A stretch of DNA of 64,000 nucleotides from the human T2T-CHM13v2.0 reference genome, Homo sapiens. The position numbers and the translations under genes are program-made. Positions 1-62,900 of the stretch are shown piece by piece. The notes beneath the pieces were generated by a model. The model was not told the origin of the DNA, did not search any database, and saw only the letters and a list, made by a program, of their open reading frames with translations. Each line of letters starts with the position of its first letter. The first letter of the stretch is position 1. Location of the stretch: assembly GCF_009914755.1 (NCBI RefSeq), contig NC_060933.1. One strand, given 5' to 3'.

Positions 1-3000
1 GAATGGAATGGAATGCAATGGAATGGAATCTTCCGGAATGGAATGGAATGGAATGTAATGGAATGAAATGCAATGGATTCAACTCGATTGAAATGGAATG
101 GAATAGAATGGAATGGAATGGAATGGAATTAACCCGAATAGAATGGAATGGAATGCAATGGAACGGAATGGAATGGAATGGAATGGAATGGAATGCAATG
201 GAATGGAATCAACCCGAGTACAATGGAATGGAATGGAATGGAATGGAATGGAATGGAATGGAATGGAATGGAATGGAATGGAATGATACGGAATAGAATG
301 GAATGGAACGAAATGGAATGGAATGGAATGGAATGGAATGGAATGGAATGGAATGGAATCGTTCCGAGTGGAATAGGAGGGAATGTATTCGAGTGGAATG
401 GAAAGGAATGGAATCAACCAGAGTGGAATGGAAGGGAATGGAATGGAATGGAAACTAATAGAATGGAATCAACCCGAGAGGAATAGAATGGAAAGGACTG
501 GAATGGAATGGAATGGAATGGAATCAACTCGATTGTAATGGAATGGAATGGAATGGAATGGAATGGAATGGAATTAACCCGAATACAATGCAATGGAATG
601 GAATGGAACGGAATGGAGTGGAATGGAATGGAATCAACCCGAGTGCAGGGGAATGGAATGGAATGGAATGCAATGGAATGCAATCATCCGGAATGGAATG
701 GAATGGAATGGAATGCAAAGCAATGGAATCAACTCGATTGCAATGGAATGGAATGGAATGGAAAGGAATACATTGGAATCAACCCGAGTGGAATGGAATG
801 GAAAGGACTGGAATGGAGTGGAATGGAATGGAATGGAATGGAATGGAATCAACTCGATTGGAATGGAATGGAATGGAATGGAATGGAATGAAATGGAATT
901 AACCCGAATAGAATGGAATGGAATGGAATGGAACGGAACGGAACGGAACGGAACGGAACGGAATGGAATGGAATGGAATGGAATGGAATGGAATGGAAAC
1001 AACCCGACTGCAGGGGAATGGAATGGAATGGAATGCAATGGAATGGATTCAACTTGAATGGAATGGAAAGAATGGAATCAACACGAGTCGAATGGCATGG
1101 ATTGGAATGGAATGGAATGGAATCAACCCGAGTACAGGGGAATGGAATGGAATGGAACGCAATGGAATGGAATCATCCGTAATGGAATGGAAAGGAATGG
1201 AATGGAATGGAATGGAATGGAATGGAATGGAATGGAATGGAATGCAATGGAATGGAATCTTCCGGAATGGAATGGAATGGAATGGAATGGAATGCAATGG
1301 ATTCAAATCGATTGCAATGGAATGGAATAGAATGGAATGGAATGGAATGGAATGGAATGGAATGGAATTAAACCGAATAGAATGGAATGGAATGGTATGG
1401 AACGGAATGGAACGGAACGGAACGGAACGGAGTGGAATGGAATGGAATGGAATTGTATGCAATGGAATGGAATGGTACGGAATAGAATGGAATGGAAAGA
1501 ATTGGAATGGAATGGAATGGAATGGAATGGAATGGAATGGAATGGAATCAACCCGAGTGCAGGGGAATGTAATGGAACGGAATGCAATGGAATGGAATCA
1601 TCCGGAATGGAATGGAATGGAATGGAATGGAATGGAATCAATCCGAGTGCAATGGAATAGAGTGGAATGGAATGGAATGGAATGGAACAACCCGAATGGA
1701 ATGGAATGTAATGAAGAGTAAGGGAGTTGAATAGAATCAATCCGAATGAAATGGAATGGAATGCAACAGAATGGAATGGAATGGAATGGAATGGAATGCA
1801 ATGGAATTGAATCAAACCGAGTACAATGGAATGGAATGGAATGGAATGGAATGGAATGGAATGGAATGGAATGGAATGATACGGAATAGAATGGAATGGA
1901 ACGAAATGGAATGGAATGGAATGGAATGGATTGGAATGGAATGGAATGGAATGGAATGCCTTCAAACCGAATGGAATGGAAAGGAATGAAATCAAAACGA
2001 GTGGAATGGAATGGAATGGAATGGAATGGAATGGAATGATACGGAATAGAATGGAATGGAACGAAATGGAATGGAATGGAATGTAATGGAATGGAATGGA
2101 ATGGAATGGAATCGTTCCGAGTGGAATAGGAGGGAATGTATTCGAGTGGAATGGAAAGGAATGGAATCAACCAGAGTGGAATGGAAGGGAATGGAATGGA
2201 ATGGAAACTAATAGAATGGAATCAACCCGAGTGGAATGGAATGGAAAGGACTGGAATGGAAAGGAATGGAATGGAATGGAATGGAATGGAATGGAATGGA
2301 ATCAACGCGAGTGCAGGGGAATGGAATGGAATGGAATGGAATGGAATGGAATGGAATGGAATTTAATCAACCCGAGTGCAGGGGAATGTAATGGAACGGA
2401 ATGCAATGGAATGGAATCATCCGGAATGGAATGCAATGGAATGGAATGGAATCAACCCGAGTGCAATGGAATGGAGTGGAATGGAATGGAATTGAATGGA
2501 ACAATCCGAATGGAATGGAATGTAATGGAGAGTAAGGGAGTTGAAAAGAATCAATCCGAATGTAATGGAATGGAACGGAATGGAATGGAATGGAATGGAA
2601 TGGAATGGAATGGAATGGAATGGAATGCAATGGAATGGAATCAACCCGAGTACAATGGAATGGAATGGAATGGAATGGAATGGAATGGAATGATACGGAA
2701 TAGAATGGAATGGAACGAAATGGAATGGAATGGAATGGAATGGAATGGAATGGAATGGAATGGAATCGTTCCGAGTGGAATAGGAGGGAATGTATTCGAG
2801 TGGAATGGAAAGGAATGGAATCAACCAGAGTGGAATGGAAGGCAATGGAATGGAATGGAAACTAATAGAATGGAATCAACCCGAGTGGAATGGAATGGAA
2901 AGGAATGGAATGGAATGGAATGGAATGGAATCAACTCGATTGTAATGGAATGGAATGGAATGGAATGGAATGGAATGGAATGGAATGGAATGGAATGGAA

Positions 3001-6000
3001 TCAACCCGAGTGCAATGGAATGGAGTGGAATGGAATGGAATGGAATGGAACAACCTGAATGGAATGGAATGGAATGGAGAGTAAGGGAGTTGAATAGAAT
3101 CAATCCGCATGTAATGGAATTGAATGCAACGGAATGGAATTGAATGGAATGGAATGGAATGCAATGGAATGGAATCAACCCGAGTGCAATGGAATGGAGA
3201 GGAATGGAATGGAATGGAATGGAAACTACCCGAATGGAATGGAATGTAATGCAGTGTAAGGGAATTGAATAGAATCAATCCGAATGTAATGGAATGTAAT
3301 GGAATGGAATGGAATGGAATGGAATGGAATGGAATTGAATGGAATGGAATGCAATGGAATGGAATCAACCCGAGTGCAATCGAATGGAATCAAATTGAAT
3401 GGAATGCAATGGAATGGATTCAACTTGAATGGAATGGAAAGAATGGAATCAACACGAGTGGAATGGCATGGATTGGAATGGAATGGAATGGAATAAACCC
3501 GAGTACAGGGGAATGGAATGGAATGGAATGCAATGGAATGGAATCATCCGTAATGGAATGGAAAGGAATGGAATGGAATGGAATGGAATGGAATGGAATC
3601 AACTCGATTGCAATCGAATGGAATGGAATGGAATTAACCCGAATAGAATGGAATGGAATGGAATGGAACGGAACGGAATGGAATGGAATGGAATGGAATG
3701 GAATGGAATGGAATGCAATGGAATGGAATGGAATGGAATGGAATGGAATGGTATGGAATGGAATGGAATGGTACGGAATAGAATGGAATCCAACGAATTG
3801 TAATGGAATGTAATTGAATGGAATGGAATGGAATGGAATGAACGCGTGTGCAGGGGAATGTAATGGAACGGAATGCAATGGAATGGAATCATCCGGAATG
3901 GAATGGAATGGAATGGAATGGAATCAACCCTAGTGCAATGGAATGGAGTGGAATGGAATGGAATGGAATGGAACAACCGGTATGGAATGGAATGTAATGG
4001 AGAGTAAGGGATTTGAATAGAATCAATCCGAATGTAATGGAATGGAATGCAAGGGAATGGAATGGAATGGAATGGAATGGAATGCAATGGAATGGAATCA
4101 ACCCGAGTACAATGGAATGGAATGGAATGGAATGGAATGGAATGCCTTCAAACCGAATGGAATGGAAAGGAATGGAATCAACACGAGTGGAATGGAATGG
4201 AATGGAATGGAACGGAATGGAATGGAATGATATGGAATAGAATGGAATGGAACGAATTGGAATCGAATGGAATGGAATGGAATGGAATCGTTCCGAGTGG
4301 AATAGGAGGGAATGTATTCGAGTGGAATGGAAAGGAATGGAATCAACCAGAGTGGAATGGAAGGGAATGGAATGGAATGGAAACTAATGGAATGGAATCA
4401 ACCCGAGTGGAATGGAAAGGAAAGGACTGGAATGGAATGGAATGGAATGGAATGGAATGGAATCAACTCGATTGTAATGGAATGGAATGGAATGGAATGG
4501 AATGGAATGGAATTAACCCGAATACAATGGAATGGAATGGAATGGAACGGAATGGAGTGGAATGGAATGGAATCAACCCGAGTACAGGGGAATGGAATGG
4601 AATAGAATGCAATGGAATGGAATCATCCGGAATGGAATGGAATGGAATGGAATGCAAAGCAATGGAATCAACTCGATTGCAATGGAATGGAATGGAATGG
4701 AAAGGAATACATTGGAATCAACCCGAGTGGAATGGAATGGAAAGGACTGGAATGGAGTGGAATGGAATGGATTGGAATGGAATGGAATCAACTCGATTGG
4801 AATGGAATGGAATGGAATGGAATGGAATGGAATGGAATGGAATTAACCCGAATAGAATGGAATGGAATGGAATGGAATGGAACGGAATGGAATGGAATGG
4901 AATGGAATGGAATGGAATGGAATCAACCCGACTGCAGGGGTATGGAATGGAAGGGATTGCAATGGAATGGATTCAACTTGAATGGAATGGAAAGAATGGA
5001 ATCAACACGAGTGGAATGGCATGGATTGGAATGGAATGGAATGGAATCAACCCGAGTACAGGGGAATGGAATGGAATGGAATGCAATGGAATGGAATCAT
5101 CCGTAATTGAATGAAAAGGAATGGAATGGAATGCAATGGAATGGAATGAAATCAACTCGATTGCAATCGAATGGAATGGAATGGAATTAACCCGAATAGA
5201 ATGGAATGGAATGGAATGGAACGGAACGGATCGGAATGGAATGGAATGGAATGGAATGGAATGGAATGGAATGGAATCAACGCGAGTGCAGGGGAATGGA
5301 ATGGAATGGAATGCAATGGAATGGAATCTTCCGGAATGGAATGGAATGGAATGGAATGAAATGGAATAAACCTGAGTGCAATGGAATGGAGTGGAATGGA
5401 ATGGAATGGAATGGAACAAGCCGAATGCAATGGAATGTAATGGAGAGTAAGGGAGTTGAATAGAGTCAATCCGAATGTAATGGAATGGAATGGAACGGAA
5501 TGGAATGGAATGGAATGCAATGGAATGGAATCAACCCGAGTGCAATGGAATGAAGAGGAATGGAATGGAATGGAATGGAAACTACCCGAATGGAATGGAA
5601 TGTAATGGAGTGTAAGGGAATTGAATAGAATCAATCCGAATGTAATGGAATGGAATGGAACGGAATGGAATGGAATGGAATGGAATGGAATGGAATGGAA
5701 TGCAATGGAATGGAATCAACCCGAGTGCAATCGAATGGAATCGAATGGAATGGAATGCAATGGAATAGATTCAACTTGAATGGAATGGAAAGAATGGAAT
5801 CAACACGAGTGGAAGGGCATGGATTGGAATGCAAAGGAATGGAATCAACCCGATTACAGGGGAATGGAATGGAATGGAATGCAATGGAATGGAATCATCC
5901 GTAATGGAATGGAAAGGAATGGAATGGAATGGAATGGAATGGAATGGAATCAACACGATTGCAATCGAATGGAATGGAGTGGAATTAACCCGAATAGAAT

Positions 6001-7211
6001 GGAATGGAATGGAATGGAACGGAACGGAATGGAATGGAATGGAATGGAATGGAATGGAACGGAACGGAACGGAATGGAATGGAATGGAATGGAATGGAAT
6101 GGAATGGAATGGAATCAACGCGAGTGCAGGGGAATGGCATGGAATGGAATGCAATGGAATGGAATCTTCCGGAATGGAATGGAATAGAATGGAATGAAAT
6201 GCAATGGATTCAACTCGGTTGCAATGGAATGGAATAGAATGGAATGGAATGGAATGGAATGGGATTAACCCGAATAGAATGGAATTGAATGGAATGAAAC
6301 GGAATGGAACGGAATGGAATGCAACGGAATGGAACGGAATGGAATGGAATGGAATGGAATGGAATGGAATGGTATGGAATGGAATGGAATGGTACGGAAT
6401 AGAATGGAATGGAACGAATTGTAATGGAATGGAATTGAATGGAAAGGAATGGAATGGAATGGAATCAACGCGAGTGCAGGGGAATGTAATGGAACGGAAT
6501 GCAATGGAATGGAATCATCCGGAATGGAATGGAATGGAATGGAATGGAATGGAATGGAATCAACCCGAGTGCAATGGAATGGAGTGGAATGGAATGGAAT
6601 GGAATGGAACAATCCGAATGGAATGGAATGTAATGGAGAGTAAGGGAGTTGAATAGAATCAATCCGAATGTAATGGAATGGAATGCAACAGAATGGAATG
6701 GAATGGAATGGAATGGAATGGAATGCAAAGGAATTTAATCAACCCGAGTGGAATGGCATGGAATGGAATGCAATGGATTGGAATGGAATGGAATCAACTC
6801 GAGTGGAAAGGAATGGAATGGAATGGAAAGGAATGGAATGAACTCAACTCGAGTGGAATGGAATGGAATGGAATGGATTGGAATGGATTGCAATGGAATG
6901 AACTGGAATGGAATGGAATGGAATCAATCATGGAAGGGAATGTAATGGAGTGGAAAGAAGGGAATGGAATCAACCCGAGTGGAATGCAAGGCAATGGAAT
7001 GGAATGGAAAGGAATGGAATGCAATCAACTCGATTGCAATGGAATGGAATGGAATGGAATGGAATGGAGTTAACCGGAATAGAATGGAATGGAACGGAAT
7101 GGAATGGAATGGAAGGGAATGGAATCAACACGAGTGCAGGGGAATGGAATGGAATGGAATGCAATGGAATGGAATCATCCGGAATGGAATGGAATGGAAT
7201 GGAATAAACCC
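1..7211 (+). repeat. HSat3 block 1, G-rich (GGAAT) strand on +, dialect A
   Basis: GGAAT on + until ...GGAATAAACCC at 7201-7211. Confidence 0.97.
25..39. promoter_or_regulatory. Perfect heat-shock element nGAAn-nTTCn-nGAAn (first of 29 counted)
   Basis: GGAAT-CTTCC-GGAAT matches the canonical HSF trimer site; function is not shown by the sequence. Confidence 0.6.
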
Positions 7212-7230
7212 ATTCCGTTCCATTGTACTC
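7201..7230. other. Strand-switch junction 1 (convergent G-rich strands)
   Basis: GGAATAAAC[CC]ATTCCGTTCCATTGTACTC; CC at 7210-7211 fits both orientations. Confidence 0.95.
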
Positions 7231-10200
7231 GGGTTGATTCCATTCCATTGCATTCCTTTCCATTCCATTCCATTCCATTCCATTCCAATCCATTCCATTC
7301 CGTTTCATTCCATTACATTCGGATTGATTCTATTCAACTCCCTTACTCTCCATTACATTCCATTCCATTCGGGTTGTTCCATTCCATTCCATTCCATTCC
7401 ACTCCATTCCATTGCACTCCGGTTGATTCCATTCCATTCCATTCCATTCCATTCGATTCCATTCCATTCCAATTCTTTCCATTCCATTCTATTCCGTACC
7501 ATGCCATTCCATTCCATACAATTCCATTCCATTCCATTCCACTCATTCCACTCCGTTCCGTTCCGTTCCGTTCCGTTCCATTCCATTCCATTCCATTCTA
7601 TTCGGGTTAATTCCATTCCATTCCATTCGATTGCAATCGAGTTGATTCCATTCCATTCCATTCCATTCCATTCCATTCCATTCCATTCCTTTCCATTCCA
7701 TTACGGATGATTCCATTCCATTGCATTCCATTCCATTCCATTCCCCTGTGCTCGGGTTGATTCCATTCCATTCCATTCCAATCCATGGCATTCCACTCGT
7801 GTTGATTCCATTCTTTCCATTCCATTCAAGTTGAATCCATTCCATTGCATTCCATTCCATTCGATTCCATTCGATTGCACTCGGGTTGATTCCATTCCAT
7901 TGCATTCCATTCCATTCGATTCCATTCCATTCCATTCCATTCCATTCCATTCCGTTCCATTCCATTCCATTACATTCGGATTGATTCTATTCAATTCCCT
8001 TACACTCCATTACATTCCATTCCATTCGGGTAGTTTCCATTCCATTCCATTCCATTCCTCTCCATTCCATTGCACTCGGGTTGATTCCATTCCATTCCAT
8101 TCCATTCAATTCCATTCCGTTCCATTCCATTCCATTACATTCGGATTGATTCTATTCAACTCCCTTACTCTCCATTACATTGCATTCCATTCGGGTTGTT
8201 CCATTCCATTCCATTCCATTCCACTCCATTCCATTGCACTCGGGTTTATTCCATTCCATTCCATTCCATTCCATTCCATTCCATTCCATTCCATTCCATT
8301 ACATTCGGATTGATTCTATTCAATTCCCTTACACTCCATTACATTCCATTCCATTCGGGTAGTTTCCACTCCATTCCATTCCATTCCGCTCCATTCTATT
8401 GCACTTGGGTTGATTCCATTCCATTCCATTCCATTCCATTCCATTCCATTCCATGCCATTCCATTCCATTCCATTCCGTTCCATTGTACTCGGGTTGATT
8501 CCATTCCATTGCATTCCATTCCATTCCATTCCATTCCATTCCATTCCGTTCCATTCCATTACATTCGGATTGATTCTATTCAACTCCCTAACTCTCCATT
8601 ACATTCCATTCCATTCGGGTTGTTCCATTCCATTCCATTCCATTCCACTCCATTCCATTGCACTCGGGTTGATTCCATTCCATTCCATTCCATTCAATTC
8701 CATTCCATTCCATTCCGGATGATTCCATTCCATTGCATTCCGTTCCATTACATTCCCCTGCACTCGGGTTGATTCCATTCCATTCCACTCCATTCCATTC
8801 GATTCCATTCCATTCCAATTCTTTCCATTCCATTCTATTCCGTAACATTCCATTCCATTCCATACAATTCCATTCCATTCCATTCCACTCCGTTCCGTTC
8901 CGTTCCGTTCCGTTCCATTCTATTCCATTCCATTCTATTCGGTTTAATTCCATTCCATTCCATTCCATTCCATTCTATTCCATTCCATTGCAATCGAGTT
9001 GAGTCCATTGCATTCCATTCCATTCCATTCCATTCCATTCCATTCCGGAAGATTCCATTCCATTGCATTCCATTCCATTCCATTCCATTCCATTCCATTC
9101 CATTCCATTCCATTCCATTGTACTCGGGTTGATTCCATTCCATTGCATTCCATTCCATTCCATTCCATTCCATTCCATTCCATTCCGTTCCATTCCATTC
9201 CATTACATTCAGATTGATTCTTTTCAACTCCCTTACTCTCCATTACATTCCATTCCATTCGGGTTGTTCCATTCCATTCCTTTCCATTCCACTCCATTCC
9301 ATTGCACTCGGGTTGATTCCATTCCATTCCATTCCATTCCATTCCGGATGATTCCATTCCATTGCATTCCGTTCCATTACATTCCCCTGCACTCGGGTTG
9401 ATTCCATTCCATTCCATTCCATTCCATTCCATTCCATTCCCCTGCACTCGCGTTGATTCCATTCCATTCCATTCCATTCCATTCCATTCCATTCCATTCC
9501 TTTCCATTCCAGTCCTTTCCATTCCATTCCACTCGGGTTGATTCCATTCTATTAGTTTCCATTCCATTCCATTACCTTCCATTCCACTGTAGTTGATTCC
9601 ATTCCTTTCCATTCCACTCGAATACGTTCCCTCCTATTCCACTCGGAACGATTCCATTCCATTCCATTCCATTCCATTCCATTCCATTCCATTCCATTCC
9701 ATTTCGTTGCATTCCATTCTATTCCGTATCATTCCATTCCATTCCATTCCATTCCATTCCATTCCACTCGTGTTGATTCCATTCCTTTCCATTCCTTTCG
9801 GTTTGAAGGCATTCCATTCCATTCCATTCCATTCCATTCCATTCCATTCCATTCCGTTCCATTCCATTCCATTACATTCGGATTGATTCTATTCAATTCC
9901 CTTACACTCCATTCCATTCCATTCCATTCGGGTAGTCTCCATTCCATTCCATTCCATTCCTCTCCATTCCATTGCACTCGGGTTGATTCCATTCCATTCC
10001 ATTCCATTCAATTCCATTCCGTTCCATTCCTTTCCATTACATTCGGATTGATTCTATTTAACTCCCTTACTCTCCATTACATTCCATTCCATTCGGGTTG
10101 TTCCATTCCATTCCATTCCATTCCACTCCATTCCATTGCACTCGGGTTTTTTCCATTCCATTCCATTCCATTCCATTCCATTCCATTCCATTCCGGAAGA

Positions 10201-12039
10201 TTCCATTCCATTGCATTCCATTCCATTCCATTCCCCTGAACTCGCGTTGATTCCATTCCATTCCATTCCTTTCCGTTCCATTCCATTCCATTCCATTCCA
10301 TTCCAATCCATTCCATTCCGTTCCGTTCCGTTCCATTCCATTCCATTCCATTCTATTCGGGTTAATTCCATTCCATTCCATTCGATTGCAATCGAGTTGA
10401 TTCCATTCCATTCTATTCCATTCCATTCCATTCCATTCCATTCCATTCCTTTCCATTCCATTACGGATGATTCCATTCCATTGCATTCCATTCCATTCCA
10501 TTCCCATGTACTCGGGTTGATTCCATTCCATTCCATTCCAATCCATGCCATTCCACTCGTGTTGATTCCATTCTTTCCATTCCATTCAAGTTGAATCCAT
10601 TCCATTGCATTTAATTCCATTCCATTCCCCTGCACTCACGTTGATTCCATTCCATTCCATTCCATCTCATTCCATTCCGTACCGTTCCATTCCATTCCGT
10701 TCCATTCCGTTCCGTTCCATTCCATTCCATTCCATTCTATTCGGGTTAATTCCATTCCATTCCATTCGATTGCAATCGAGTTGATTCCATTCCATTCCAT
10801 TCCATTCCATTCCATTCCATTCCATTCCTTTCCATTCCATTACGGATGATTCCATTCCATTGCATTCCATTCCATTCCATTCCCCTGTACTCGGGTTGAT
10901 TCCATTCCATTCCATTCCAATCCATGGCATTCCACTCGTGTTGATTCCATTCTTTCCATTCCATTCAAGTTGAATCCATTCCATTGCATTCCATTCCATT
11001 CGATTCCATTCGATTGCACTCGGGTTGATTCCATTCCATTGCATTCCATTCCATTCGATTCCATTCCATTCCATTCCATTCCATTCCATTCCGTTCCATT
11101 CCATTCCATTACATTCGGATTGATTCTATTCAATTCCGTTACACTCCATTACATTCCATTCCATTCGGGTAGTTTCCATTCCATTCCATTCCATTCCTCT
11201 CCATTCCATTGCACTCGGGTTGATTCCATTCCATTCCATTCCATTCAATTCCATTCCGTTCCATTCCATTCCATTACATTCGGATTGATTCTATTCAACT
11301 CCCTTACTCTCCATTACATTCCATTCCATTCGGGTTGTTCCATTCCATTCCATTCCATTCCACTCCATTCCATTGTACTCGGGTTTATTCCATTCCATTC
11401 CATTCCATTCCATTCCGTTCCGTTCCATTCCATTCCATTCCATTCTATTCGGGTTAATTCCATTCCATTCCATTCCATTCCATTCCAATCGAGTTGATTC
11501 CATTCCATTCCATTCCATTCCATTCCACTCCATTCCAGTCCTTTCCATTCCATTCCACTCGGGTTGATTCCAATGTATTCCTTTCCATTCCATTTCATTC
11601 CATTGCAATCGAGTTGATTCCATTGCTTTGCATTCCATTCCTTTCCATTCCATTCCGGATGATTCCATTCCATTGCATTCCATTCCATTCCATTCTCCTG
11701 CACTCGGGTTGATTCCATTCCATTCCACTCCATTCCATTCCATTCCATTCCATTCCATTGTATTCGGGTTAATTCCATTCCATTGCATTCCATTCCATTC
11801 CATTCCATTACAATCGAGTTGATTCCATTCCATTCCATTCCATTCCAATCCTTTCCATTCCATTCCACTTGGGTTGATTCCATTCTATTAGTTTCCATTC
11901 CATTCCATTCCCTTCCATTCCACTCTGGTTGATACCTTTCCTTTCCATTCCACTCGAATACATTCCCTCCTATTCCACTCGGAACGATTCCATTCCATTC
12001 CATTCCATTCCATTCCATTCCATTCCATTCCATTCCATT

Positions 12040-41720: not shown

Positions 41721-41911
41721 TGGAATGGAATGGAATTAACCCGAATAGAATGGAATGGAATGGAATGGAATGGAACGGAACGGAACGGAACGGAACGGAA
41801 TGGAATGGAATGGAACGGAAAGGAATGGAATGGAATGGAATGGAATGGAATGGAATGGAATGGAATCAACGCGAGTGCAGGGGAATGGAATGGAATGGAA
41901 TGCAATGGAAT

Positions 41912-41926
41912 GGAAGCTTCCGGAAT
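41912..41926. promoter_or_regulatory. HSE variant GGAAGCTTCCGGAAT containing a HindIII site
   Basis: GGAAG-CTTCC-GGAAT keeps the nGAAn/nTTCn/nGAAn pattern; AAGCTT at 41914-41919. Confidence 0.55.
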
Positions 41927-52310: not shown

Positions 52311-53960
52311 GAATTAACCCGAATACAATGGAAGGGAATGGAATGGAATGGAAACTAATAGAATGGAATCAACCTGAGTGGAATGGAATGGAAAGGACTG
52401 GAATGGAATAGAATGGAATGGAATGGAATCAACTCGATTGTAATGGAATGGAATGGAATGGAATGGAATGGAATGGAGTGGAATGGAATGGAGTGGAATG
52501 GAATGGAATCAACCCGAGTGCAGGGGAATGGAATGGAATGGAATGCAATGGAATGGAACCATCCGGAATGGAATGGAATGGAATGGAATGCAAAATAATG
52601 GAATCATCTCGATTGCAATGGAATGGAATGGAATAGAATGGAATGGAATTAACACGAATAGAATGGAATGTAATGGAATTGAATGGAACAGAAAGGAATG
52701 GAATGGAATGGAATGGAATGGAATGGAATCGAATGGAATGGAGTGGAATTAACCGGAATAGAATGGAATGGAATGGAATGGAACGGAATGAAATGGAATG
52801 GAATGGAATGGAATGGAATGGAATCAACCCGAGTGCAGGGGAATGGAATGGAATGGAATGCAATGGAATTAACCCGAATACAATGGAAGGGAATGGAATG
52901 GAATGGAAACTAATAGAATGGAATCAACCTGAGTGGAATGGAATGGAAAGGACTGGAATGGAATAGAATGGAATGGAATGGAATCAACTCGATTGTAATG
53001 GAATGGAATGGAATGGAATGGAATGGAATGGAGTGGAATGGAATGGAATCAACCCGAGTGCAGGGGAATGGAATGGAATGGAATGCAATGGAATGGAACC
53101 ATCCGGAATGGAATGGAATGGAATGGAATGCAAAATAATGGAATCATCTCGATTGCAATGGAATGGAATGGAATAGAATGGAATGGAATTAACACGAATA
53201 GAATGGAATGTAATGGAATTGAATGGAACAGAAAGGAATGGAATGGAATGGAATGGAATGGAATGGAATCGAATGGAATGGAGTGGAATTAACCGGAATA
53301 GAATGGAATGGAATGGAATGGAACGGAATGAAATGGAATGGAATGGAATGGAATGGAATGGAATGGAATGGAATCAACCCGAGTGCAGGGGAATGGAATG
53401 GAATGGAATGGAATGCAATGGAATTAACCCGAATACAATGGAAGGGAATGGAATGGAATGGAAACTAATAGAATGGAATCAACCTGAGTGGAATGGAATG
53501 GAAAGGACTGGAATGGAATAGAATGGAATGGAATGGAATCAACTCGATTGTAATGGAATGGAATGGAATGGAATGGAATGGAATGGAGTGGAATGGAATG
53601 GAATCAACCCGAGTGCACGGGAATGGAATGGAATGGAATGCAATGGAATGGAACCATCCGGAATGGAATGGAATGGAATGGAATGCAAAATAATGGAATC
53701 ATCTCGATTGCAATAGAATGGAATGGAATAGAATGGAATGGAATTAACACGAATAGAATGGAATGTAATGGAATTGAATGGAACAGAAAGGAATGGAATG
53801 GAATGGAATGGAATGGAATGGAATCGAATGGAATGGAGTGGAATTAACCGGAATAGAATGGAATGGAATGGAATGGAACGGAATGAAATGGAATGGAATG
53901 GAATGGAATGGAATGGAATCAACCCGAGTGCAGGGGAATGGAATGGAATGGAATGCAATG
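52311..53960 (+). repeat. Three tandem copies of a ~555-bp higher-order unit
   Basis: GAATTAACCCGAATACAATGGAAGGG at 52311, 52866 and 53421; GCAAAATAATGGAATCATCTCG at ~52590, 53130 and 53685. Confidence 0.92.
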
Positions 53961-56900
53961 GAATGGAATCATCCGGAATGGAATGGAATGGAATGGAATG
54001 CCATCAACCTGATGCAATGGAATGGAGTGGAATGGAATGGAATGGAAACATCCCGAATGGAATGGAATGCAATGGAGTGTAAGGGAATTGAATAGAATCA
54101 ATCCGAATGTAATGGAATGGAATGGAATGAAATGGAATGGAATGGAATGGAATGGAATCAACCCGAGTGCAATGGAATGGATTCGAATGGAATGGAATGG
54201 AATGGAATGGATTCAACAAGAATGGAATGGAAAGGAATGGAATCAACCCGAGTGTAATGGCATGGAATGGAACGGAATGGAATGGGATGGAATGGAATGG
54301 TATGGAATAGAATGGAATGGAATGAAATGGAATAGAATGGAATGGAATGGAATGGAATGGAATGAACCCGTGTGCAATGGAATGGAATGGAATGGAATGG
54401 AATGGATTCAACTCGAATGGAATCAACTCGATTGCAATGGAATGGAATGGAATTGAAAGGAATAGAATGGAATCAACCCGAGTGGAATGGAATGGAAAGG
54501 ACTGGAATGGAGTGGAATGGAATGGAATGGAATTAACCCGAATAGAATGAAATGGAACGGAATGGAATGGAATGTAATGGAATGGAATGGAATGGAATCA
54601 ACCCGAGTGCAGGGGAATGGAATGGAATGGAATGCAATGGAATGGAATCATCCGGAATGGAATGGAATGGAATTTAATGGAATGGAATGGAATCAACTCG
54701 ATTTCAATGGAAATGGAATGGAATAGAATGGAATGGAATTAACACGAATAGAATGGAATGGAATGGAATTGAATGGAACAGAAAGGAATGGAATGGAATG
54801 GAATGGAATCAACCCAAGTGCAGGAGAATGGAATGGAATGGAATTCAATGGAATGGAATCATCCGGAATGGAATGGAATGGAATGGAATGGAATGGAATG
54901 GAATGGAATCAACCCGAGTGCAATGGAATGGAGAGGAATGGAATGGAATGGAATGGAAACTACACGAATCGAATGGAATGTAATGGAGTGTAAGGGAATT
55001 GAATAGAATGAATCCGAATGGAATGGAATGGAAAGGAATGGAATGGAATGGAATGGAATGGAATGGAATGCAATGCCATGGAATCAACCCGAGTGCAATC
55101 GAATGGAATCGAATGGAATGGAATGCAATGGAATGGATTCAACTTGAATGGAATGGAAAGAATGGAATCAACACGAGTGGAATGGCATGGATTGGAATGG
55201 AATGGAATGGAATCAACCCGAGTACAGGGGAATGGAATGGAATGGAATGAAATGGAATGGAATCATCCGTAATGTAATGGAAAGGAATGGAATGGAATGG
55301 AATGGAATGGAATCAACTCTATTGCAATCGAATGGAATGGAATGGAATTAACCCGAATAGAATGGAATGGAATGGAATGGAATGGAATGGAACGGAACGG
55401 AACGGAACGGAACGGAATGGAATGGAATGGAATGGAATGGAATGCAATGGAATGGAATCAACTCGATTGCAATCGAATGGAATGGAATGGAATTAACCCG
55501 AATAGAATGGAATGGAATGGAATGGAATGGAATGGAACGGAACGGAACGGAACGGAATGGAATGGAATGGAATGGAATGGAATGGAATCAACTGATTGCA
55601 ATGGAATGGAATGGAATGGAATGGAATGGAATGGAATGGAATGGAATTAACCCGAATAGAATGGAATGGAATTAAATGGAACGGAACGGAATGGAATGGA
55701 ATGGAATGGAATGGAATGGAATGGAATGGAATCAACCCGACTGCAGGGGAATGGAATGGAATGGATTGCAATGGAATGGATTCAACTTGAATGGAATGGA
55801 AAGAATGGAATCAACACGAGTGGAATGGCATGAATTGGAATGGAATGGAATGGAATCAACCCGAGTACAGGGGAATGGAATGGAATGGAATGCAATGGAA
55901 TGGAATCATCCGTAATGGAATGGAAAGGAATGGAATGGAATGGAATGGAATGGAATGGAATGGAATGGAATCAACTCGATTGCAATGGAATGGAATGGAA
56001 TGGAATTAACCCAAATAGAATGGAATGGAATGGAATGGAACGGAACGGAACGGAATGGAATGGAATGGAATGGAATGGAATGGAACGGAAAGGAATGGAA
56101 TGGAACGGAATGGAATGGAATGGAATGGAATGGAATCAACGCGAGTGCAGGGGAATGGAATGGAATGGAATGCAATGGAATGGAATCTTCCGGAATGGAA
56201 TGGAATGGAATGGAATGGAATCAACCCGAGTGCAATGGAATGGAGTGGAATGGAATGGAATGGAATGGAACAACCCGAATGGAATGGAATGTAATGGAGA
56301 GTAAAGGAGTTGAATAGAATCATTCCGAATGTAATGGAATGGAATGGAACGGAATGGAATTGAATGGAATGGAATGGAATGCAATGGAATGGAATCAACC
56401 CGCGTGCAATGGAATGGAGAGGAATGGAATGGAATGGAATGGAAACTACCCGAATGGAATGGAATGTAATGGAGTGTAAGGGAATTGAATAGAATCAATC
56501 CGAATGTAATGGAATGGAATGGAACGGAATGGAATGGAATGGAATGGAATGGAATGGAATGGAATGGAATCAACCCGAGTGCAATCGAATGGAATCGAAT
56601 GGAATGCAATGCAATGGAATGGATTCAACTTGAATGGAATGGAAAGAATGGAATCAACACGAGTGGAATGGCATGGATTGGAATGGAATGGAATGGAATC
56701 AACCCGAGTACAGGGGAATGGAATGGAATGGAATGCAATGGAATGGAATCATCCGTAATGGAATGGAAAGGAATGGAATGGAATGGAATCAACTCGATTG
56801 CAATCGAATGGAATGGAATGGAATTAACCCAAATAGAATGGAATGGAATGGAATGGAACGGAACGGAATGGAATGGAATGGAATGGAATGGAATGGAACG

Positions 56901-59900
56901 GAACGGAACGGAACGGAACGGAATGGAATGGAATGGAATGGAAAGGAATCAACGCGAGTGCAGGGGAATGGAATGGAATGGAATGCAATGGAATGGAATC
57001 TTCCGGAATGGAATGGAATGGAATGGAATGGAATGGAATCAACCCGAGTGCAATGGAATGGAGTGGAATGGAATGGAATGGAATGGAACAACCCGAATTG
57101 AATGGAATGTAATGGAGAGTAAGGGAGTTGAATAGAATCAATCCGAATGTAATGGAATGGAATGGAACGGAATGGAATTGAATGGGATGGAATGGAATGC
57201 ATGGAATGGAGTCAACCCGAGTTCAACGGAATGGAGAGGAATGGAATGGAATGGAATGGAAACTACCCGAATGGAATGGAATGGAATGGAGTGTAAGGGA
57301 ATTGAATAGAATCAATCCGAATGTAATGTAATGGAATGGAATGGAATGGAATGGAATGGAATGGAATGGAATGGAATGCAATGGAATGGAATCAACCCGA
57401 GTGCAATCGAATGGAATCGAATGGAATGGAATGCAATGGAATGGATTCAACTTGAATGGAATGGAAAGAATGGAATCAACACGAGTGGAATGGCATGGAT
57501 TGGAATGGAATGGAATGGAATCAACCAGAGTACAGGGGAATGGAATGGAATGGAATGCAATGGAATGGAATCATCCGTAATGGAATGGAAAGGAATGGAA
57601 TGGAATGGAATGGAATGGAATGGAATGGAATGGAATGGAATCAACTCGATTGCAATCGAATGGAATGGAATGGAATTAACCCGAATAGAATGGAATGGAA
57701 TGGAATGGAATGGAACGGAACGGAATGGAATGGAATGGAATGGAACGGAACGGAATGGAATGGAATGGAATGGAATGGAATCAACGCGAGTGCAGGGGAA
57801 TGGAATGGAATGGAATGCAATGGAATGGAAACTTCCGGAATGGAATGGAATGGAATGGAATGGAATGGAATGGAATGGAATGGAATGCAATCAACCCGAC
57901 TGCAGGGGAATGGAATGGAATGGAATGGAATGGAATGGAATGGAATCATCCGGAACGGAATGGAATGGAATGGATTGGAATCAAATCGATTGCAATGGAA
58001 TGGAATGGAATGGAATGGAATCGAATGGAATGGAGTGGAATTAACCGGAATAGAATGGAATGGAATGGAATGGAACGGAATGAAATGGAATGGAATGGAA
58101 TGGAATGGAATGGAATCAACCCGAGTGCAGGGGAATGGAATGGAATGGAATGCAATGGAATGGAATCATCCGGAATGGAATGGAATGGAATGGAATGCAA
58201 TCAACCTGATGCAATGGAATGGAGTGGAATGGAATGGAATGGAATGGAAACATCCCGAATGGAATGGAATGTAATGGAGTGTAAGGGAATTGAATAGAAT
58301 CAATCCGAATGTAATGGAATGGAATGGAATGGAATGGAATCAACCCGAGTGCAATGGAATGGATTCGAATGGAATGGAATGGAATGGAATGGATTCAACA
58401 AGAATGGAATGGAAAGGAATGGAATCAACCCGAGTGTAATGGCATGGAATGGAACGGAATGGAATGGGATGGAATGGAATGGTATGGAATAGAATGGAAT
58501 GGAATGAAATGGAATAGAATGGAATGGAATGGAATGCAATGGAATGAACCCGTGTGCAATGGAATGGAATGGAATGGAATGGAATGGATTCAACTCGAAT
58601 GGAATCAACTCGATTGCAATGGAATGGAATGGAATTGAAAGGAATAGAATGGAATCAACCCGAGTGGAATGGAATGGAAAGGACTGGAATGGAGTGGAAT
58701 GGAATGGAATGGAATTAACCCGAATAGAATGAAATGGAACGGAATGGAATGGAATGTAATGGAATGGAATGGAATGGAATCAACCCGAGTGCAGGGGAAT
58801 GGAATGGAATGGAATGCAATGGAATGGAATCATCCGGAATGGAATGGAATGGAATGGAATGGAATGGAATGGAATCAACTCGATTTCAATGGAAATGGAA
58901 TGGAATAGAATGGAATGGAATTAACACGAATAGAATGGAATGGAATGGAATTGAATGGAACAGAAAGGAATGGAATGGAATGGAATGGAATCAACCCAAG
59001 TGCAGGGGAATGGAATGGAATGGAATTCAATGGAATGGAATCATCCGGAATGGAATGGAATGGAATGGAATGGAATGGAATGGAATGGAATGGAATGGAA
59101 TCAACCCGAGTGCAATGGAATGGAGAGGAATGGAATGGAATGGAATGGAAACTACACGAATCGAATGGAATGTAATGGAGTGTAAGGGACTTGAATAGAA
59201 TGAATCCGAATGGAATGGAATGGAAAGGAATGGAATGGAATGGAATGGAATGGAATGCAATGCCATGGAATCAACCCGAGTGCAATCGAATGGAATCGAA
59301 TGGAATGGAATGCAATGGAATGGATTCAACTTGAATGGAATGGAAAGAATGGAATCAACACGAGTGGAATGGCATGGATTGGAATGGAATGGAATGGAAT
59401 CAACCCGAGTACAGGGGAATGGAATGGAATGGAATGAAATGGAATGGAATCATCAGTAATGTAATGGAAAGGAATGGAATGGAATGGAATGGAATCAACT
59501 CTATTGCAATCGAATGGAATGGAATGGAATTAACCCGAATAGAATGGAATGGAATGGAATGGAATGGAACGGAACGGAACGGAACGGAACGGAATGGAAT
59601 GGAATGGAATGGAATGGAATGGAATGCAATGGAATCAACTGATTGCAATGGAATGGAATGGAATGGAATGGAATGGAATGGAATGGAATCAACCCGACTG
59701 CAGGGGAATGGAATGGAATGGATTGCAATGGAATGGATTCAACTTGAATGGAATGGAAAGAATGGAATCAACACGAGTGGAATGGCATGGATTGGAATGG
59801 AATGGAATGGAATCAACCCGAGTACAGGGGAATGGAATGGAATGGAATGCAATGGAATGGAATCATCCGTAATGGAATGGAAAGGAATGGAATGGAATGG

Positions 59901-62900
59901 AATGGAATGGAATGGAATGGAATGGAATCAACTCGATTGCAATGGAATGGAATGGAATGGAATTAACCCAAATAGAATGGAATGGAATGGAATGGAACGG
60001 AACGGAACGGAATGGAATGGAATGGAATGGAATGGAATGGAACGGAAAGGAATGGAATGGAACGGAATGGAATGGAATGGAATGGAATGGAATCAACGCG
60101 AGTGCAGGGGAATGGAATGGAATGGAATGCAATGGAATGGAATCTTCCGGAATGGAATGGAATGGAATGGAATGGAATCAACCCGAGTGCAATGGAATGG
60201 AGTGGAATGGAATGGAATGGAATGGAACAACCCGAATGGAATGGAATGTAATGGAGAGTAAAGTAGTTGAATAGAATCATTCCGAATGTAATGGAATGGA
60301 ATGGAACGGAATGGAATTGAATGGAATGGAATGGAATGCAATGGAATGGAATCAACCCGAGTGCAATGGAATGGAGAGGAATGGAATGGAATGGAATGGA
60401 AACTACCCGAATGGAATGGAATGTAATGGAGTGTAAGGGAATTGAATAGAATCAATCCGAATGTAATGGAATGGAATGGAACGGAATGGAATGGAATGGA
60501 ATGGAATGGAATGGAATGGAATCAACCCGAGTGCAATCGAATGGAATCGAATGCAATGCAATGCAATGGAATGGATTCAACTTGAATGGAATGGAAAGAA
60601 TGGAATCAACACGAGTGGAATGGCATGGATTGGAATGGAATGGAATGGAATCAACCCGAGTACAGGGGAATGGAATGGAATGGAATGCAATGGAATGGAA
60701 TCATCCGAAATGGAATGGAAAGGAATGGAATGGAATGGAATCAACTCGATTGCAATCGAATGGAATGGAATGGAATTAACCCAAATAGAATGGAATGGAA
60801 TGGAATGGAACGGAACGGAATGGAATGGAATGGAATGGAATGGAATGGAACGGAACGGAACGGAACGGAATGGAATGGAATGGAATGGAATGGAAAGGAA
60901 TCAACGCGAGTGCAGGGGAATGGAATGGAATGGAATGCAATGGAATGGAATCTTCCGGAATGGAATGCAATGGAATGGAATGGAATGGAATGGAATCAAC
61001 CAGAGTGCAATGGAATGGAGTGGAATGGAATGGAATGGAATGGAAAAACCCTAATTGTATGGAATGTAATGGAGAGTAAGGGAGTTGAATAGAATCAATC
61101 CGAATGTAATGGAATGGAATGGAACGGAATGGAATTGAATGGAATGGAATGGAATGCATGGAATGGAATCAACCCGAGTTCAACGGAATGGAGAGGAATG
61201 GAATGGAATGGAATGGAAACTACCCGAATGGAATGGAATGGAATGGAGTGTAAGGGAATTGAATAGAATCAATCCGAATGTAATGGAATGGAATGGAACG
61301 GAATGGAATGGAATGGAATGGAATGGAATGGAATGGAATGGAATGGAATGGAATGCAATGGAATGGAATCAACCCGAGTGCAATCGAATGGAATCGAATG
61401 GAATGGAATGCAATGGAATGGATTCAACTTGAATGGAATGGAAAGAATGGAATCAACACGAGTGGAATGGCATGGATTGGAATGGAATGGAATGGAATCA
61501 ACCCGAGTACAGGGGAATGGAATGGAATGGAATGCAATGGAATGGAATCATCCGTAATGGAATGGAAAGGAATGGAATGGAATGGAATGGAATGGAATGG
61601 AATCAACTCGATTGCAATCGAATGGAATGGAATGGAATTAACCCGAATAGAATGGAATGGAATGGAATGGAACGGAACGGAATGGAATGGAATGGAATGG
61701 AATGGAATGGAACGGAAAGGAAGGGAATGGAATGGAATAGAATGGAATGGAATGGAATCAACGCTAGTGCAGGGGAATGGAATGGAATGGAATGCAATGG
61801 AATGGAATCTTCCGGAATGGAATGGAATGGAATGGAATGGAATGGAATGGAATGGAATCAACCCTAGTGCAATGGAATGGAGTGGAATGGAATGGAATGG
61901 AATGGAACAACCCGAATGGAATGGAATGTAATGGAGAGTAAGGGAGTTGAATAGAATCAATCCGAATGTAATGGAATGGAATGGAACGGAATGGAATTGA
62001 ATGGAATGGAATGGAATGCAATGGAATGGAATCAACCCGAGTGCAATGGAATGGAGAGGAATGGAATGGAATGGAATGGAAACTACCCGAATGGAATGGA
62101 ATGTAATGGAGTGTAAGGGAATTGAATAGAATCAATCCGAATGTAATGGAATGGAATGGAAAGGAATGGAATGGAATGGAATGGAATGGAATGGAATGGA
62201 ATGGAATGCAATGGAATGGAATCAACCCGAGTGCAATCGAATGGAATCGAATGGAATGGAATGCAATGGAATGGATTCAACTTGAGTGGAATGGAAAGAA
62301 TGGAATCAACACGAGTGGAATGGTATGGATTGGAATGGAATGGAATGGAATCAACCCGAGTACAGGGGAATGGAATGGAATGGAATGCAATGGAATGGAA
62401 TCATCCGTAATGGAATGGAAAGGAATGGAATGGAATGGAATGGAATGGAATGGAATGGAATGGAATGGAATGGAATCAACTCGATTGCAATCGAATGGAA
62501 TGGAATGGAATTAACCCGAATAGAATGGAATGGAATGCAATGGAACGGAACGGAATGGAATGGAATGGAATGGAACGGAACGGAATGGAATGGAATGGAA
62601 TGGAATGGAATCAACGCGAGTGCAGGGGAATGGAATGGAATGGAATGCAATGGAATGGAAACTTCCGGAATGGAATGGAATGGAATGGAATGGAATGGAA
62701 TGGAATGGAATGGAATCAACCCGACTGCAGGGGAATGGAATGGAATGGAATGGAATCATCCGGAACGGAATGGAATGTAATGGAATGGAATCAAATCGAT
62801 TGCAATGGAATGGAATGGAATGGAATGGAATCGAATGGAATGGAGTGGAATTAACCGGAATAGAATGGAATGGAATGGAATGGAACGGAATGAAATGGAA

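What the first reader, a model, noticed from the sequence alone, without database searches (positions are those of the whole stretch)
25..62671. Perfect heat-shock elements are written into dialect A and absent for 17.5 kb across dialect B
Seen: the variant pentamer CTTCC turns the array into GGAAT-CTTCC-GGAAT, an exact nGAAn-nTTCn-nGAAn site. I count 29 starts: 25, 1254, 5323, 6161; on the inverted block 9042, 10190, 12586, 14987, 15815, 16693, 18931, 20543, 22006, 22600, 23644; then 41212, 41912, 44417, 45980, 49461, 50329, 51371, 56182, 56995, 57827, 60139, 60947, 61804, 62657. None lies in 23659-41211, where the same slot reads CATCC or CATAC. The recognisable variants (GGAAA-, GGAAG-, -CTTCA-) change only 'n' positions, although ascertainment favours this. 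Known: HSF1 trimers bind this consensus, and HSF1 drives Sat III transcription in nuclear stress bodies. Inference: a single A/T toggle (CATCC vs CTTCC) inside a repeated module could partition the array into HSF1-responsive and HSF1-poor domains, with the poor domain surrounding the divergent strand switch.
Basis: partly seen in the sequence, partly recalled or inferred. Interest (0 to 1): 0.8.

Follow-up and report, generated by a model that had tools for sequence, protein, structure and literature searches.

The report
Heat-shock sites in chr9 satellite 3
The 29 perfect heat-shock-factor binding sites are real copies of one variant block of the chromosome 9 satellite 3 repeat, and the 17.5 kb without them is a patch of a different repeat variant; this patchy layout of such sites in satellite 3 is already described in print.

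Summary
Observation confirmed exactly.

All 29 are one site family, GGAAT-CTTCC-GGAAT. It marks one paralogous sub-block of the chr9 HSat3 repeat, usually preceded by CAACGCGAGTGCAGGGG.

The "single A/T toggle between dialects" is not supported. CATCC slots are the majority inside dialect A too (76 of 105 slots). CTTCC never follows the CAACCCGAG terminator (0 of 50).

Dialect B is a real, separate sequence variant at about 23.9-39.15 kb. It lacks the CTTCC sub-block.

In 200 kb of fetched flanks, two more B-type patches of about 20 kb are also free of these sites: 0 in 19 B-type bins against 103 in 81 A-type bins. Neither contains a strand switch, so the link to the divergent switch is incidental.

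The 15-mer occurs 12,700 times genome-wide.

Published work already states that HSF1 motifs lie in sub-regions of HSat3 arrays and that heat-shock HSF1 ChIP-seq follows motif density.

Verdict: a real feature, an ordinary consequence of repeat-variant structure, and largely known. HSF1 preference at this 15-20 kb scale remains untested.

The parts
1..7206 (+). A-type HSat3 with GGAAT on the + strand; 4 HSEs
7202..7216 (.). Convergent strand-switch junction (last GGAAT at 7201-7205, first ATTCC at 7212); A-type sequence on both sides
7207..23900 (-). A-type HSat3 with GGAAT on the - strand; 11 HSEs
23900..28458 (-). B-type HSat3, minus-oriented arm; 0 HSEs; left boundary about 23.75-24.0 kb from 20-mer sharing
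28451..28469 (.). Divergent strand-switch junction (last ATTCC at 28451-28455, first GGAAT at 28465); B-type sequence on both sides
28459..39150 (+). B-type HSat3, plus-oriented arm with a period of about 1.9 kb; 0 HSEs; right boundary about 39.0-39.25 kb
39151..64000 (+). A-type HSat3; 14 HSEs, the first at 41212
5278..5337 (+). Example of the HSE-bearing sub-block: CAACGCGAGTGCAGGGG, (GGAAT)n, GCAAT, GGAAT, GGAAT-CTTCC-GGAAT
25..39 (+). HSE GGAATCTTCCGGAAT
1254..1268 (+). HSE GGAATCTTCCGGAAT
5323..5337 (+). HSE GGAATCTTCCGGAAT
6161..6175 (+). HSE GGAATCTTCCGGAAT
9042..9056 (-). HSE GGAATCTTCCGGAAT
10190..10204 (-). HSE GGAATCTTCCGGAAT
12586..12600 (-). HSE GGAATCTTCCGGAAT
14987..15001 (-). 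HSE GGAATCTTCCGGAAT
15815..15829 (-). HSE GGAATCTTCCGGAAT
16693..16707 (-). HSE GGAATCTTCCGGAAT
18931..18945 (-). HSE GGAATCTTCCGGAAT
20543..20557 (-). HSE GGAATCTTCCGGAAT
22006..22020 (-). HSE GGAATCTTCCGGAAT
22600..22614 (-). HSE GGAATCTTCCGGAAT
23644..23658 (-). HSE GGAATCTTCCGGAAT; last site before the B patch
41212..41226 (+). HSE GGAATCTTCCGGAAT; first site after the B patch, about 2 kb inside A-type sequence
41912..41926 (+). HSE variant GGAAGCTTCCGGAAT (change at an n position)
44417..44431 (+). HSE GGAATCTTCCGGAAT
45980..45994 (+). HSE GGAATCTTCCGGAAT
49461..49475 (+). HSE variant GGAATCTTCAGGAAT (change at an n position)
50329..50343 (+). HSE GGAATCTTCCGGAAT
51371..51385 (+). HSE variant GGAAACTTCCGGAAT (change at an n position)
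56182..56196 (+). HSE GGAATCTTCCGGAAT
56995..57009 (+). HSE GGAATCTTCCGGAAT
57827..57841 (+). HSE variant GGAAACTTCCGGAAT (change at an n position)
60139..60153 (+). HSE GGAATCTTCCGGAAT
60947..60961 (+). HSE GGAATCTTCCGGAAT
61804..61818 (+). HSE GGAATCTTCCGGAAT
62657..62671 (+). HSE variant GGAAACTTCCGGAAT (change at an n position)
42914..42928 (+). Sub-block with the exact HSE-type upstream flank (CAACG terminator, 0 mismatches) but CATCC in the slot: a one-base non-HSE copy inside dialect A

Best explanation
The window is chr9 pericentromeric HSat3.

Shown:
- The 29 sites are copies by descent of one variant pentamer, CTTCC. It is fixed in one paralogous sub-block of the nested repeat: usually CAACGCGAGTGCAGGGG, (GGAAT)3, GCAAT, GGAAT, then GGAAT-CTTCC-GGAAT.
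- Between two GGAAT units, CTTCC makes exactly three alternating nGAAn units.
- The sub-block has been spread by repeat amplification to about 0.5-0.6 sites per kb across the array and about 12,700 copies in the genome.
- The 17.5 kb gap is a patch of a different HSat3 sub-variant, 'B', of about 15 kb with its own period of about 1.9 kb. B lacks this sub-block. A further 2 kb or so of ordinary A-type spacing completes the gap.
- B-type patches of 15-22 kb recur in the array and are all HSE-free.
- The strand switch inside this B patch is incidental.

Inferred:
- Three alternating units is the canonical site for one HSF1 trimer.
- On heat shock, HSF1 trimers load mainly at these CTTCC sites. 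A-type sequence would then be HSF1-rich and B-type patches HSF1-poor. This matches the published statement that HSF1 ChIP-seq follows HSF1 motif density in sub-regions of HSat3 arrays.
For: Sites and positions.

Shared context of all 29 sites.

Linkage to the terminator type:
- 23 of 29 CTTC[CA] slots follow a CAACGCGAG-type 9-mer; 5 follow a GGAAT run; 1 is cut by the window edge.
- 0 of 50 slots behind CAACCCGAG are CTTCC. Fisher p = 3.8e-12.

Flank-only ascertainment (143 blocks): 23 CAACG blocks carry CTTC[CA], 10 CAACG blocks carry CATCC, and no CAACC block carries CTTCC.

B is a separate domain:
- In the 20-mer sharing matrix, bins 24-38 stand apart.
- The boundaries are at about 23.9 and 39.15 kb.
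- B has a 1.9 kb period.
- GGAAT density is the same as in A, 112.5 against 112.9 per kb, so B is not degraded sequence.

Out-of-sample repeat in the 200 kb of flanks:
- 81 A-type 2-kb bins hold 103 HSEs; 19 B-type bins hold 0.
- Over the 264 kb, the gaps above 5 kb are 20.8, 21.8, 17.6, 10.2 and 5.7 kb. The three largest are the three B-type patches.

Array-wide sample: of 20 samples of 2 kb between 50.5 and 76.5 Mb, 19 are A-type with 20 HSEs in 38 kb, and 1 is B-type with 0.

Genome-wide: 6460 + 6240 copies of the 15-mer, against 0 + 3 for the reversed control. All 100 listed places are on chr9.

Site quality, using rules quoted in PMC8379338 (passages):
- The G of every GAA is present.
- G, not T, precedes each GAA on its own strand.
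- The dinucleotide between TTC and the downstream GAA is pyrimidine-purine (CG).

Function, from print:
- bioRxiv 10.1101/2024.10.22.616524 (passages): HSF1 motifs lie in sub-regions of HSat3 arrays and heat-shock HSF1 ChIP-seq is enriched where motif density is high.
- PMC2173303 (passages): recombinant HSF1 shifts the 9q12 satellite III clone pHuR98, competes with an HSE, and does not shift a satellite II probe.
Against: - No HSF1 binding data were examined here at the scale of these 15-20 kb patches. The published correlation is stated for 'sub-regions', and I could not see its figure.
- B still holds 8 one-mismatch sites, and A holds 69, mostly GAATCATCCGGAA. These keep the key guanine, so the difference in affinity between CTTCC and CATCC may be modest.
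- HSF1 DNA-binding domains have been crystallised on head-to-tail SatIII repeats (cited in PMC8379338), so plain GGAAT runs may also load HSF1.
- Every site has a CpG at its centre in what is reported as CpG-methylated heterochromatin. The effect of that on binding is unknown.
- One 10.2 kb stretch of A-type sequence also lacks HSEs, so A-type is not uniformly HSE-rich.
- The Poisson and Fisher values assume independent sites, which repeat copies are not. The honest sample is 3 of 3 B patches plus one 2-kb B sample.
Confidence: 0.72

Rival explanations
1. HSF1 loads across the whole array through direct GGAAT repeats and near-HSEs. The perfect CTTCC sites would then add little, and A and B would not differ in their heat-shock response. 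The CTTCC variant would be a neutral passenger of repeat amplification.
For: - HSF1 DNA-binding domains have been crystallised on head-to-tail SatIII repeats (cited in PMC8379338).
- GGAAT density is equal in A and B, 112.9 against 112.5 per kb.
- One-mismatch sites that keep the guanine are common: 77 in the window.
- There is no clear sign of constraint. With flank-only ascertainment, 8 of 117 blocks have core point changes and 18 have changes at n positions only. Those 18 are dominated by the CpG positions and one inherited n5 variant.
Against: [quoted passage not shown]
- A GGAAT-rich satellite II probe was not shifted by HSF1 in vitro.
- One-mismatch sites are also depleted in B, 0.52 against 1.42 per kb, so B would still be poorer.
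Confidence: 0.18
2. One A/T toggle in a single repeated slot (CATCC against CTTCC) would partition the array into HSF1-responsive and HSF1-poor domains, with the poor domain organised around the divergent strand switch.
For: - CTTCC and CATCC differ by one base in an otherwise similar block.
- B slots read CATCC or CATAC.
- In this window the B patch does contain the divergent switch.
Against: - CATCC/CATCA fills 76 of 105 slots inside A.
- CTTCC belongs to a distinct paralogous sub-block with a CAACGCGAG-type terminator and occurs behind CAACCCGAG in 0 of 50 slots.
- B differs from A across its whole length, not at one base.
- 2 of 3 B-type patches in 264 kb have no strand switch, and 2 of 3 switches lie in A-type sequence.
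Confidence: 0.05
3. The CTTCC variant matters through another factor. On the C-rich strand it reads CCGGAAG, an ETS-type core (consensus recalled, not taken from a call). The sites would then be ETS-family sites, or would be silenced by CpG methylation and bound by nothing.
For: - CTTCCGG occurs 28 times in A and 0 times in B, on the G-rich strand orientation.
- The site centre is a CpG within CCGG.
Against: - The HSat3 transcription-factor screen reports that ETS motifs are not heavily enriched in HSat3, apart from ETV5-FOXO1 (passage).
- The flanks of the core are not the recalled optimum.
- No ETS motif library was run here.
Confidence: 0.05

Closest known systems
HSF1 motif-rich sub-regions of HSat3 arrays in T2T-CHM13 (bioRxiv 10.1101/2024.10.22.616524; passages read)
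   Same: It concerns the same assembly and the same satellite family. It states that HSF1 motifs lie in sub-regions of HSat3 arrays, unlike the evenly spread TEAD motifs, and that heat-shock HSF1 ChIP-seq (MCF7, GSE209667) is enriched where motif density is high.
   Different: The passages I could read name neither the variant pentamer nor the sub-block that carries it. They give no patch size, no HSE-free variant and no relation to strand switches. Its figure 2b and its supplements were not visible to me and may show more.
Perfect HSEs in Yq12 satellite III (PMC7889540; passages read)
   Same: Canonical HSEs are interspersed in GGAAT-rich satellite III: 4 perfect HSEs in a 3564-bp unit. HSF1 ChIP was positive nearby after heat shock.
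   Different: It concerns a different chromosome and subfamily. Its density of about 1.1 per kb compares with about 0.5-0.6 per kb here. The paper speculates that 9q12 may have fewer HSEs than Yq12.
9q12 satellite III as the primary HSF1 target (PMC2173303; PMC9032817; PMC10505914; passages read)
   Same: It is the same locus. Recombinant HSF1 binds the 9q12 clone pHuR98 in vitro. [quoted passage not shown] (our unpublished observation)'.
   Different: The site sequences are not given in the text I could search. The 12-mer ATCTTCCGGAAT is printed in no satellite III paper of the library. The total number of sites is said there to be unknown; here the 15-mer count is 12,700.
Subtelomeric HSEs that drive TERRA (as summarised in PMC9032817)
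   Same: Only a subset of otherwise similar repeat-associated loci carries an HSE, and only those respond to HSF1.
   Different: Those are single-copy promoter-like positions at chromosome ends, not thousands of copies inside one array.

Membership tests
Canonical heat-shock element (HSF1 trimer site) | At least three contiguous nGAAn units in alternating orientation in a 5-bp register | tested here: met
   29 of 29 sites match GAAnnTTCnnGAA. The neighbouring units on both sides are GGAAT in direct orientation, so each site has exactly 3 units.
Canonical heat-shock element (HSF1 trimer site) | Guanine of each GAA present; no thymine before GAA; pyrimidine-purine between TTC and the downstream GAA (rules as quoted in PMC8379338) | tested here: met
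   In GGAAT-CTTCC-GGAAT, G precedes each GAA on its own strand, and the TTC-CG-GAA spacer is pyrimidine-purine.
Canonical heat-shock element (HSF1 trimer site) | Occupied by HSF1 after heat shock | not testable with these tools
   Only published statements at the level of array sub-regions are available. No reads were available here.
Canonical heat-shock element (HSF1 trimer site) | Heat-induced transcription depends on the site | not testable with these tools
   No expression data or mutants are available. G-rich SatIII RNA induction by HSF1 is published for the locus as a whole.
Human satellite 3, chr9 array (HSat3B5) | (GGAAT)n runs separated by CAAC(C/A)CGAGT-type terminators (formula quoted in PMC2241877) | tested here: met
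   About 113 GGAAT per kb, and 5.0 (A) or 2.8 (B) CAAC.CGAG per kb.
Human satellite 3, chr9 array (HSat3B5) | Lies in the large chr9 pericentromeric array, which has frequent strand switches (over 200 breakpoints) | tested here: met
   The window is G000:C9:72912001-72976000. There are 2 switches in the window and 3 in 264 kb.
Human satellite 3, chr9 array (HSat3B5) | Subfamily-specific marker k-mers as defined in the subfamily classification | not tested
   No marker list was on hand. I cannot say whether B-type patches carry another subfamily label. The 35 exact forward matches of a B-type 60-mer are all on chr9, at 54.1-75.6 Mb.
ETS-family binding site | CCGGAAG core with favourable flanks (consensus recalled) | tested here: inconclusive
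   The core is present on the C-rich strand at 28 sites in A and 0 in B. The flanks were not scored and no motif library was run.

The most novel reading that the evidence does not exclude
The chr9 HSat3 array may be built of alternating HSF1-competent stretches, which bear the CTTCC sub-block, and HSE-free B-type patches of 15-22 kb that are maintained rather than accidental. These patches would set the boundaries of stress-induced transcription units or of nuclear stress body seeding. In this window the B patch straddles a divergent switch, so neither arm has an HSE upstream in the sense of the G-rich RNA. That makes it a natural test case for a silent island inside an induced array.
Probability: 0.12. 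Interest if true: 0.55.

Novelty: already known. Interest (0 to 1): 0.3.

Why it matters
HSF1-driven transcription of 9q12 satellite III builds nuclear stress bodies. Reviews still call the number and identity of the HSF1 sites there unknown or unpublished.

This check pins the canonical site to one variant pentamer in one sub-block. It gives a genome-wide count of the exact 15-mer, 12,700. It also shows that HSE-free stretches are patches of another repeat variant, not a point toggle or an effect of inversion.

That yields sequence-specific k-mers (CTTCC, CATCC, and the B-type CATAC block) with which existing ChIP-seq or long-read binding data can be re-read. The general picture, that HSF1 motifs are patchy within HSat3 and binding follows them, is already in print, so this adds detail rather than a new principle.

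Tried and rejected
1. Fold-back or palindrome origin of the switches. A minus-strand blastn of each left arm against its right arm gave only general satellite similarity: best 78-81% around 28.46 kb and 80-91% around 7.2 kb. There was no mirror-symmetric diagonal. Rejected.

2. A fuzzy 39-mer allowing up to 6 mismatches, meant to define blocks, matched plain GGAAT runs (888 hits). The table and its Fisher value were dropped. I used the stricter slot rule and the flank-only rule instead.

3. My first slot regex had an error and found only 2 rows. It was corrected.

4. Test for constraint, core against n positions, with flank-only ascertainment over 264 kb. Of 117 blocks, 103 are perfect, 8 have core point changes and 6 have the slot replaced. 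The 18 n-only variants are dominated by CpG positions (7) and one inherited n5 variant (9). Inconclusive.

5. Genome count of a B-type 60-mer with up to 2 mismatches (2288 + 2318). It is contaminated by A-type CAACCCGAG...CATCC blocks, which sit at 2 mismatches. I used only the listed exact matches.

Twenty 2-kb pieces were used instead, so the per-sample HSE counts are small.

7. Earlier findings of this scan were not open.

8. The first whole-genome search gave no answer and worked later.

9. I could not see chromosome-by-chromosome counts of the 15-mer, because only the first 100 places are listed. 'Mostly chr9' is an inference: the total count matches the sampled density multiplied by the array size.

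Full report
**1. The observation**

A scan for GAANNTTCNNGAA on both strands finds 29 matches.
- 4 lie on the + strand between 26 and 6162.
- 11 lie on the - strand between 9043 and 23645.
- 14 lie on the + strand between 41213 and 62658.
- None lies between 23,658 and 41,213.

One hundred dinucleotide-preserving shuffles give 2.48 +/- 1.69, with a largest value of 7. Twenty-four sites are exactly GGAATCTTCCGGAAT. The other five change only n positions.

GGAAT and ATTCC counts per kb, and the junction sequences, place a convergent strand switch at 7206/7212 and a divergent one at 28455/28465.

**2. What the sites are**

All 29 sites share one context...GCAAT GGAAT GGAAT CTTCC GGAAT GGAAT...

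In most cases this is preceded, 45 bases upstream of the 15-mer, by the terminator CAACGCGAGTGCAGGGG.

I tabulated every slot of the form C[AT]T[AC][CA] followed by G[GTA]AA[TC]. That gives 119 slots.
- In A-type sequence there are 73 CATCC, 3 CATCA, 28 CTTCC and 1 CTTCA.
- In 23.9-39.15 kb there are 8 CATCC and 6 CATAC.

So CATCC is the majority state inside dialect A as well.

CTTCC is tied to a particular paralogous sub-block.
- 23 of the 29 CTTC[CA] slots follow a CAACGCGAG-type 9-mer, 5 follow a GGAAT run, and 1 is cut by the window edge.
- None follows CAACCCGAG.
- 50 CATCC/CATCA slots in A follow CAACCCGAG, and 9 follow CAACGCGAG.
- Fisher p = 3.8e-12.

I also ascertained blocks by the upstream flank alone, with up to 3 mismatches, which gives 143 blocks. 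The picture is the same: CAACG with CTTC[CA] 23 times, CAACG with CATCC 10 times, and CAACC with CTTCC never.

One copy, at 42914, has the exact HSE-type flank but CATCC in the slot.

The sites are therefore copies by descent of one variant sub-block. They are not the result of a free A/T toggle.

**3. What dialect B is**

Sharing of 20-mers between 1-kb bins, with pure GGAAT words removed, sets bins 24-38 apart from all others. A finer scan puts the boundaries near 23.75-24.0 kb and 39.0-39.25 kb.

B compared with A:
- GGAAT density is the same, 112.5 against 112.9 per kb.
- CpG is somewhat lower, 20.5 against 26.0 per kb.
- B has its own period of about 1.9 kb on the + arm.
- It has fewer slots of any kind, 0.92 against 2.15 per kb.
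- It has fewer one-mismatch HSEs, 8 against 69, or 0.52 against 1.42 per kb.

The HSE-free interval is thus about 15 kb of B plus about 2 kb of ordinary A-type spacing before the site at 41212.

**4. Does it repeat, and is the strand switch involved?**

The window is G000:C9:72912001-72976000. I fetched 100 kb on each side. I classified 2-kb bins by A-only and B-only 20-mers, which were defined in the window.

Two further B-type patches appear in the flanks.
- One runs from window -74.2 to -53.4 kb, an HSE gap of 20,781 bases.
- The other runs from window -45.2 to -23.4 kb, a gap of 21,842 bases.
- Both are uniformly + oriented.

In the flanks alone, 81 A-type bins hold 103 HSEs (0.64 per kb) and 19 B-type bins hold none. 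At the A rate, 24.2 would be expected in the B-type bins. The naive Poisson P is 3e-11.

Repeat copies are not independent, so the honest count is 3 of 3 B patches free of HSEs.

Across the 264 kb there are 132 HSEs. The median gap is 1273 bases and the 90th percentile is 3280. The only other gaps above 5 kb are 10,228 bases, in A-type sequence, and 5,693 bases.

Strand switches lie near -98.5 kb, 7.25 kb and 28.5 kb. One of three switches lies in B, and one of three B patches holds a switch.

The arms around each switch are not mirror images.

**5. Array and genome scale**

Twenty 2-kb samples were taken between 50.5 and 76.5 Mb.
- 19 are A-type, with 20 HSEs in 38 kb.
- 1 is B-type, at 62.2 Mb, with none.

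The 15-mer occurs 6460 + 6240 times in the genome, against 0 + 3 for the reversed control. The 100 listed places are all on chr9, at 49.756-49.952 Mb. A 24-mer around the site occurs 5809 + 5536 times.

The 35 listed exact forward matches of a B-type 60-mer are all on chr9, scattered from 54.1 to 75.6 Mb.

The perfect HSE is thus a standard feature of the chr9 array at about 0.5 per kb. B-type patches are a dispersed minority.

**6. Is there constraint on the core positions?**

Using only the 45-base upstream flank to find blocks in the 264 kb gives 117 blocks.
- 103 keep a perfect HSE.
- 8 have point changes at core positions.
- 6 have the slot replaced.

There are 18 variants that change only n positions. 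Seven of them are at the central CpG, and nine are one inherited T-to-A change at n5.

This neither shows nor excludes selection.

**7. Mechanism**

Shown:
- Each site has three alternating nGAAn units, and only three, because the neighbouring GGAAT units are in direct orientation.
- G precedes each GAA on its own strand, and a pyrimidine-purine CG lies between TTC and GAA. Both are favourable according to the structural paper whose passages I read (PMC8379338).

Inferred:
- One HSF1 trimer binds per site after heat shock.
- A-type sequence then loads HSF1 about every 1.3 kb, and B patches load little.

Evidence from print (passages only):
- HSF1 motifs lie in sub-regions of HSat3 arrays, and HSF1 ChIP-seq from heat-shocked MCF7 cells is enriched where motif density is high, unlike TEAD (bioRxiv 10.1101/2024.10.22.616524).
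- Recombinant HSF1 shifts the 9q12 clone pHuR98, needs more protein than for a consensus HSE, is competed by the HSE, and does not shift a satellite II probe (PMC2173303).

Against a sharp A/B contrast:
- CATCC keeps the guanine that carries the main contact.
- HSF1 DNA-binding domains have been crystallised on head-to-tail SatIII repeats (cited).
- The central CpG lies in heterochromatin reported as CpG-methylated.

**8. What is known already**

- Reviews speak of HSE-like sequences scattered in HSat3 (PMC10505914).
- They also mention putative HSEs at 9q12 as an unpublished observation, with the number of sites unknown (PMC9032817).
- Four perfect HSEs were reported in a 3564-bp Yq12 satellite III unit (PMC7889540).
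- The chr9 HSat3B5 array is known to hold over 200 inversion breakpoints (bioRxiv 10.1101/2021.07.12.452052).

A search for the 12-mer ATCTTCCGGAAT anywhere in the library returned 3 papers. Judging by title and abstract start, none is on satellite III.

My other searches gave no paper that names the CTTCC pentamer or an HSE-free variant patch. Figures are not held, in particular Fig. 2b of the HSat3 preprint and Fig. 4A of PMC2173303. bioRxiv supplements are closed. Either may show the site.

**9. Verdict**

The feature is real and the count is exact. The explanation is ordinary repeat-variant structure.

The functional idea is plausible, and its general form is already published. What this check adds:
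- the identity of the sub-block;
- the refutation of the toggle and of the strand-switch link;
- the recurrence of HSE-free B patches of 15-22 kb;
- a genome count of the site.

Noticed in passing
window 52,500-53,700: There are three tandem units of about 540-555 bp. Each carries a GGAAC-CATCC variant of the slot, at 52555, 53095 and 53650. Bins 52 and 53 share 0.8 of their 20-mers.
   Followed up: partly
window 18,200-22,300 (- strand): There is a local duplication of about 3.07 kb. Slots at 18212, 18596 and 18931 recur at 21292, 21666 and 22006. Bins 18 and 21 share 0.8 of their 20-mers, and the period peaks are at 3070 and 3080.
   Followed up: partly
window 54,000-63,000: There is a nested repeat of about 3.96-4.18 kb. 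Bins 54/58, 55/59 and 56/60 share 0.8 of their 20-mers. HSEs at 56182, 56995 and 57827 recur at 60139, 60947 and 61804.
   Followed up: partly
window 7,206 and 28,458 junctions: A-type sequence lies on both sides of the 7.2 kb junction, and B-type on both sides of the 28.46 kb junction. A single inversion would need both breakpoints at A/B borders. A fold-back would need mirror arms, and those are not seen. The origin of the 21.25 kb inverted segment is unexplained.
   Followed up: partly
outside the window: window -18,970 to -8,742 (loci L009-L010): A 10.2 kb stretch of A-type 20-mers holds no perfect HSE, so some A-type repeat variants also lack the CTTCC sub-block.
   Followed up: no
window, upstream of many HSE sub-blocks (e.g. 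5214-5240, 56890-56925): Short runs of GGAAC pentamers, each adding a CpG, often lie 60-110 bases upstream of the HSE.
   Followed up: no
window 23,900-39,150 against the rest: CpG density is lower in B (20.5 per kb) than in A (26.0 per kb). CCGG is 0.66 against 1.72 per kb. GGAAT density is equal.
   Followed up: no
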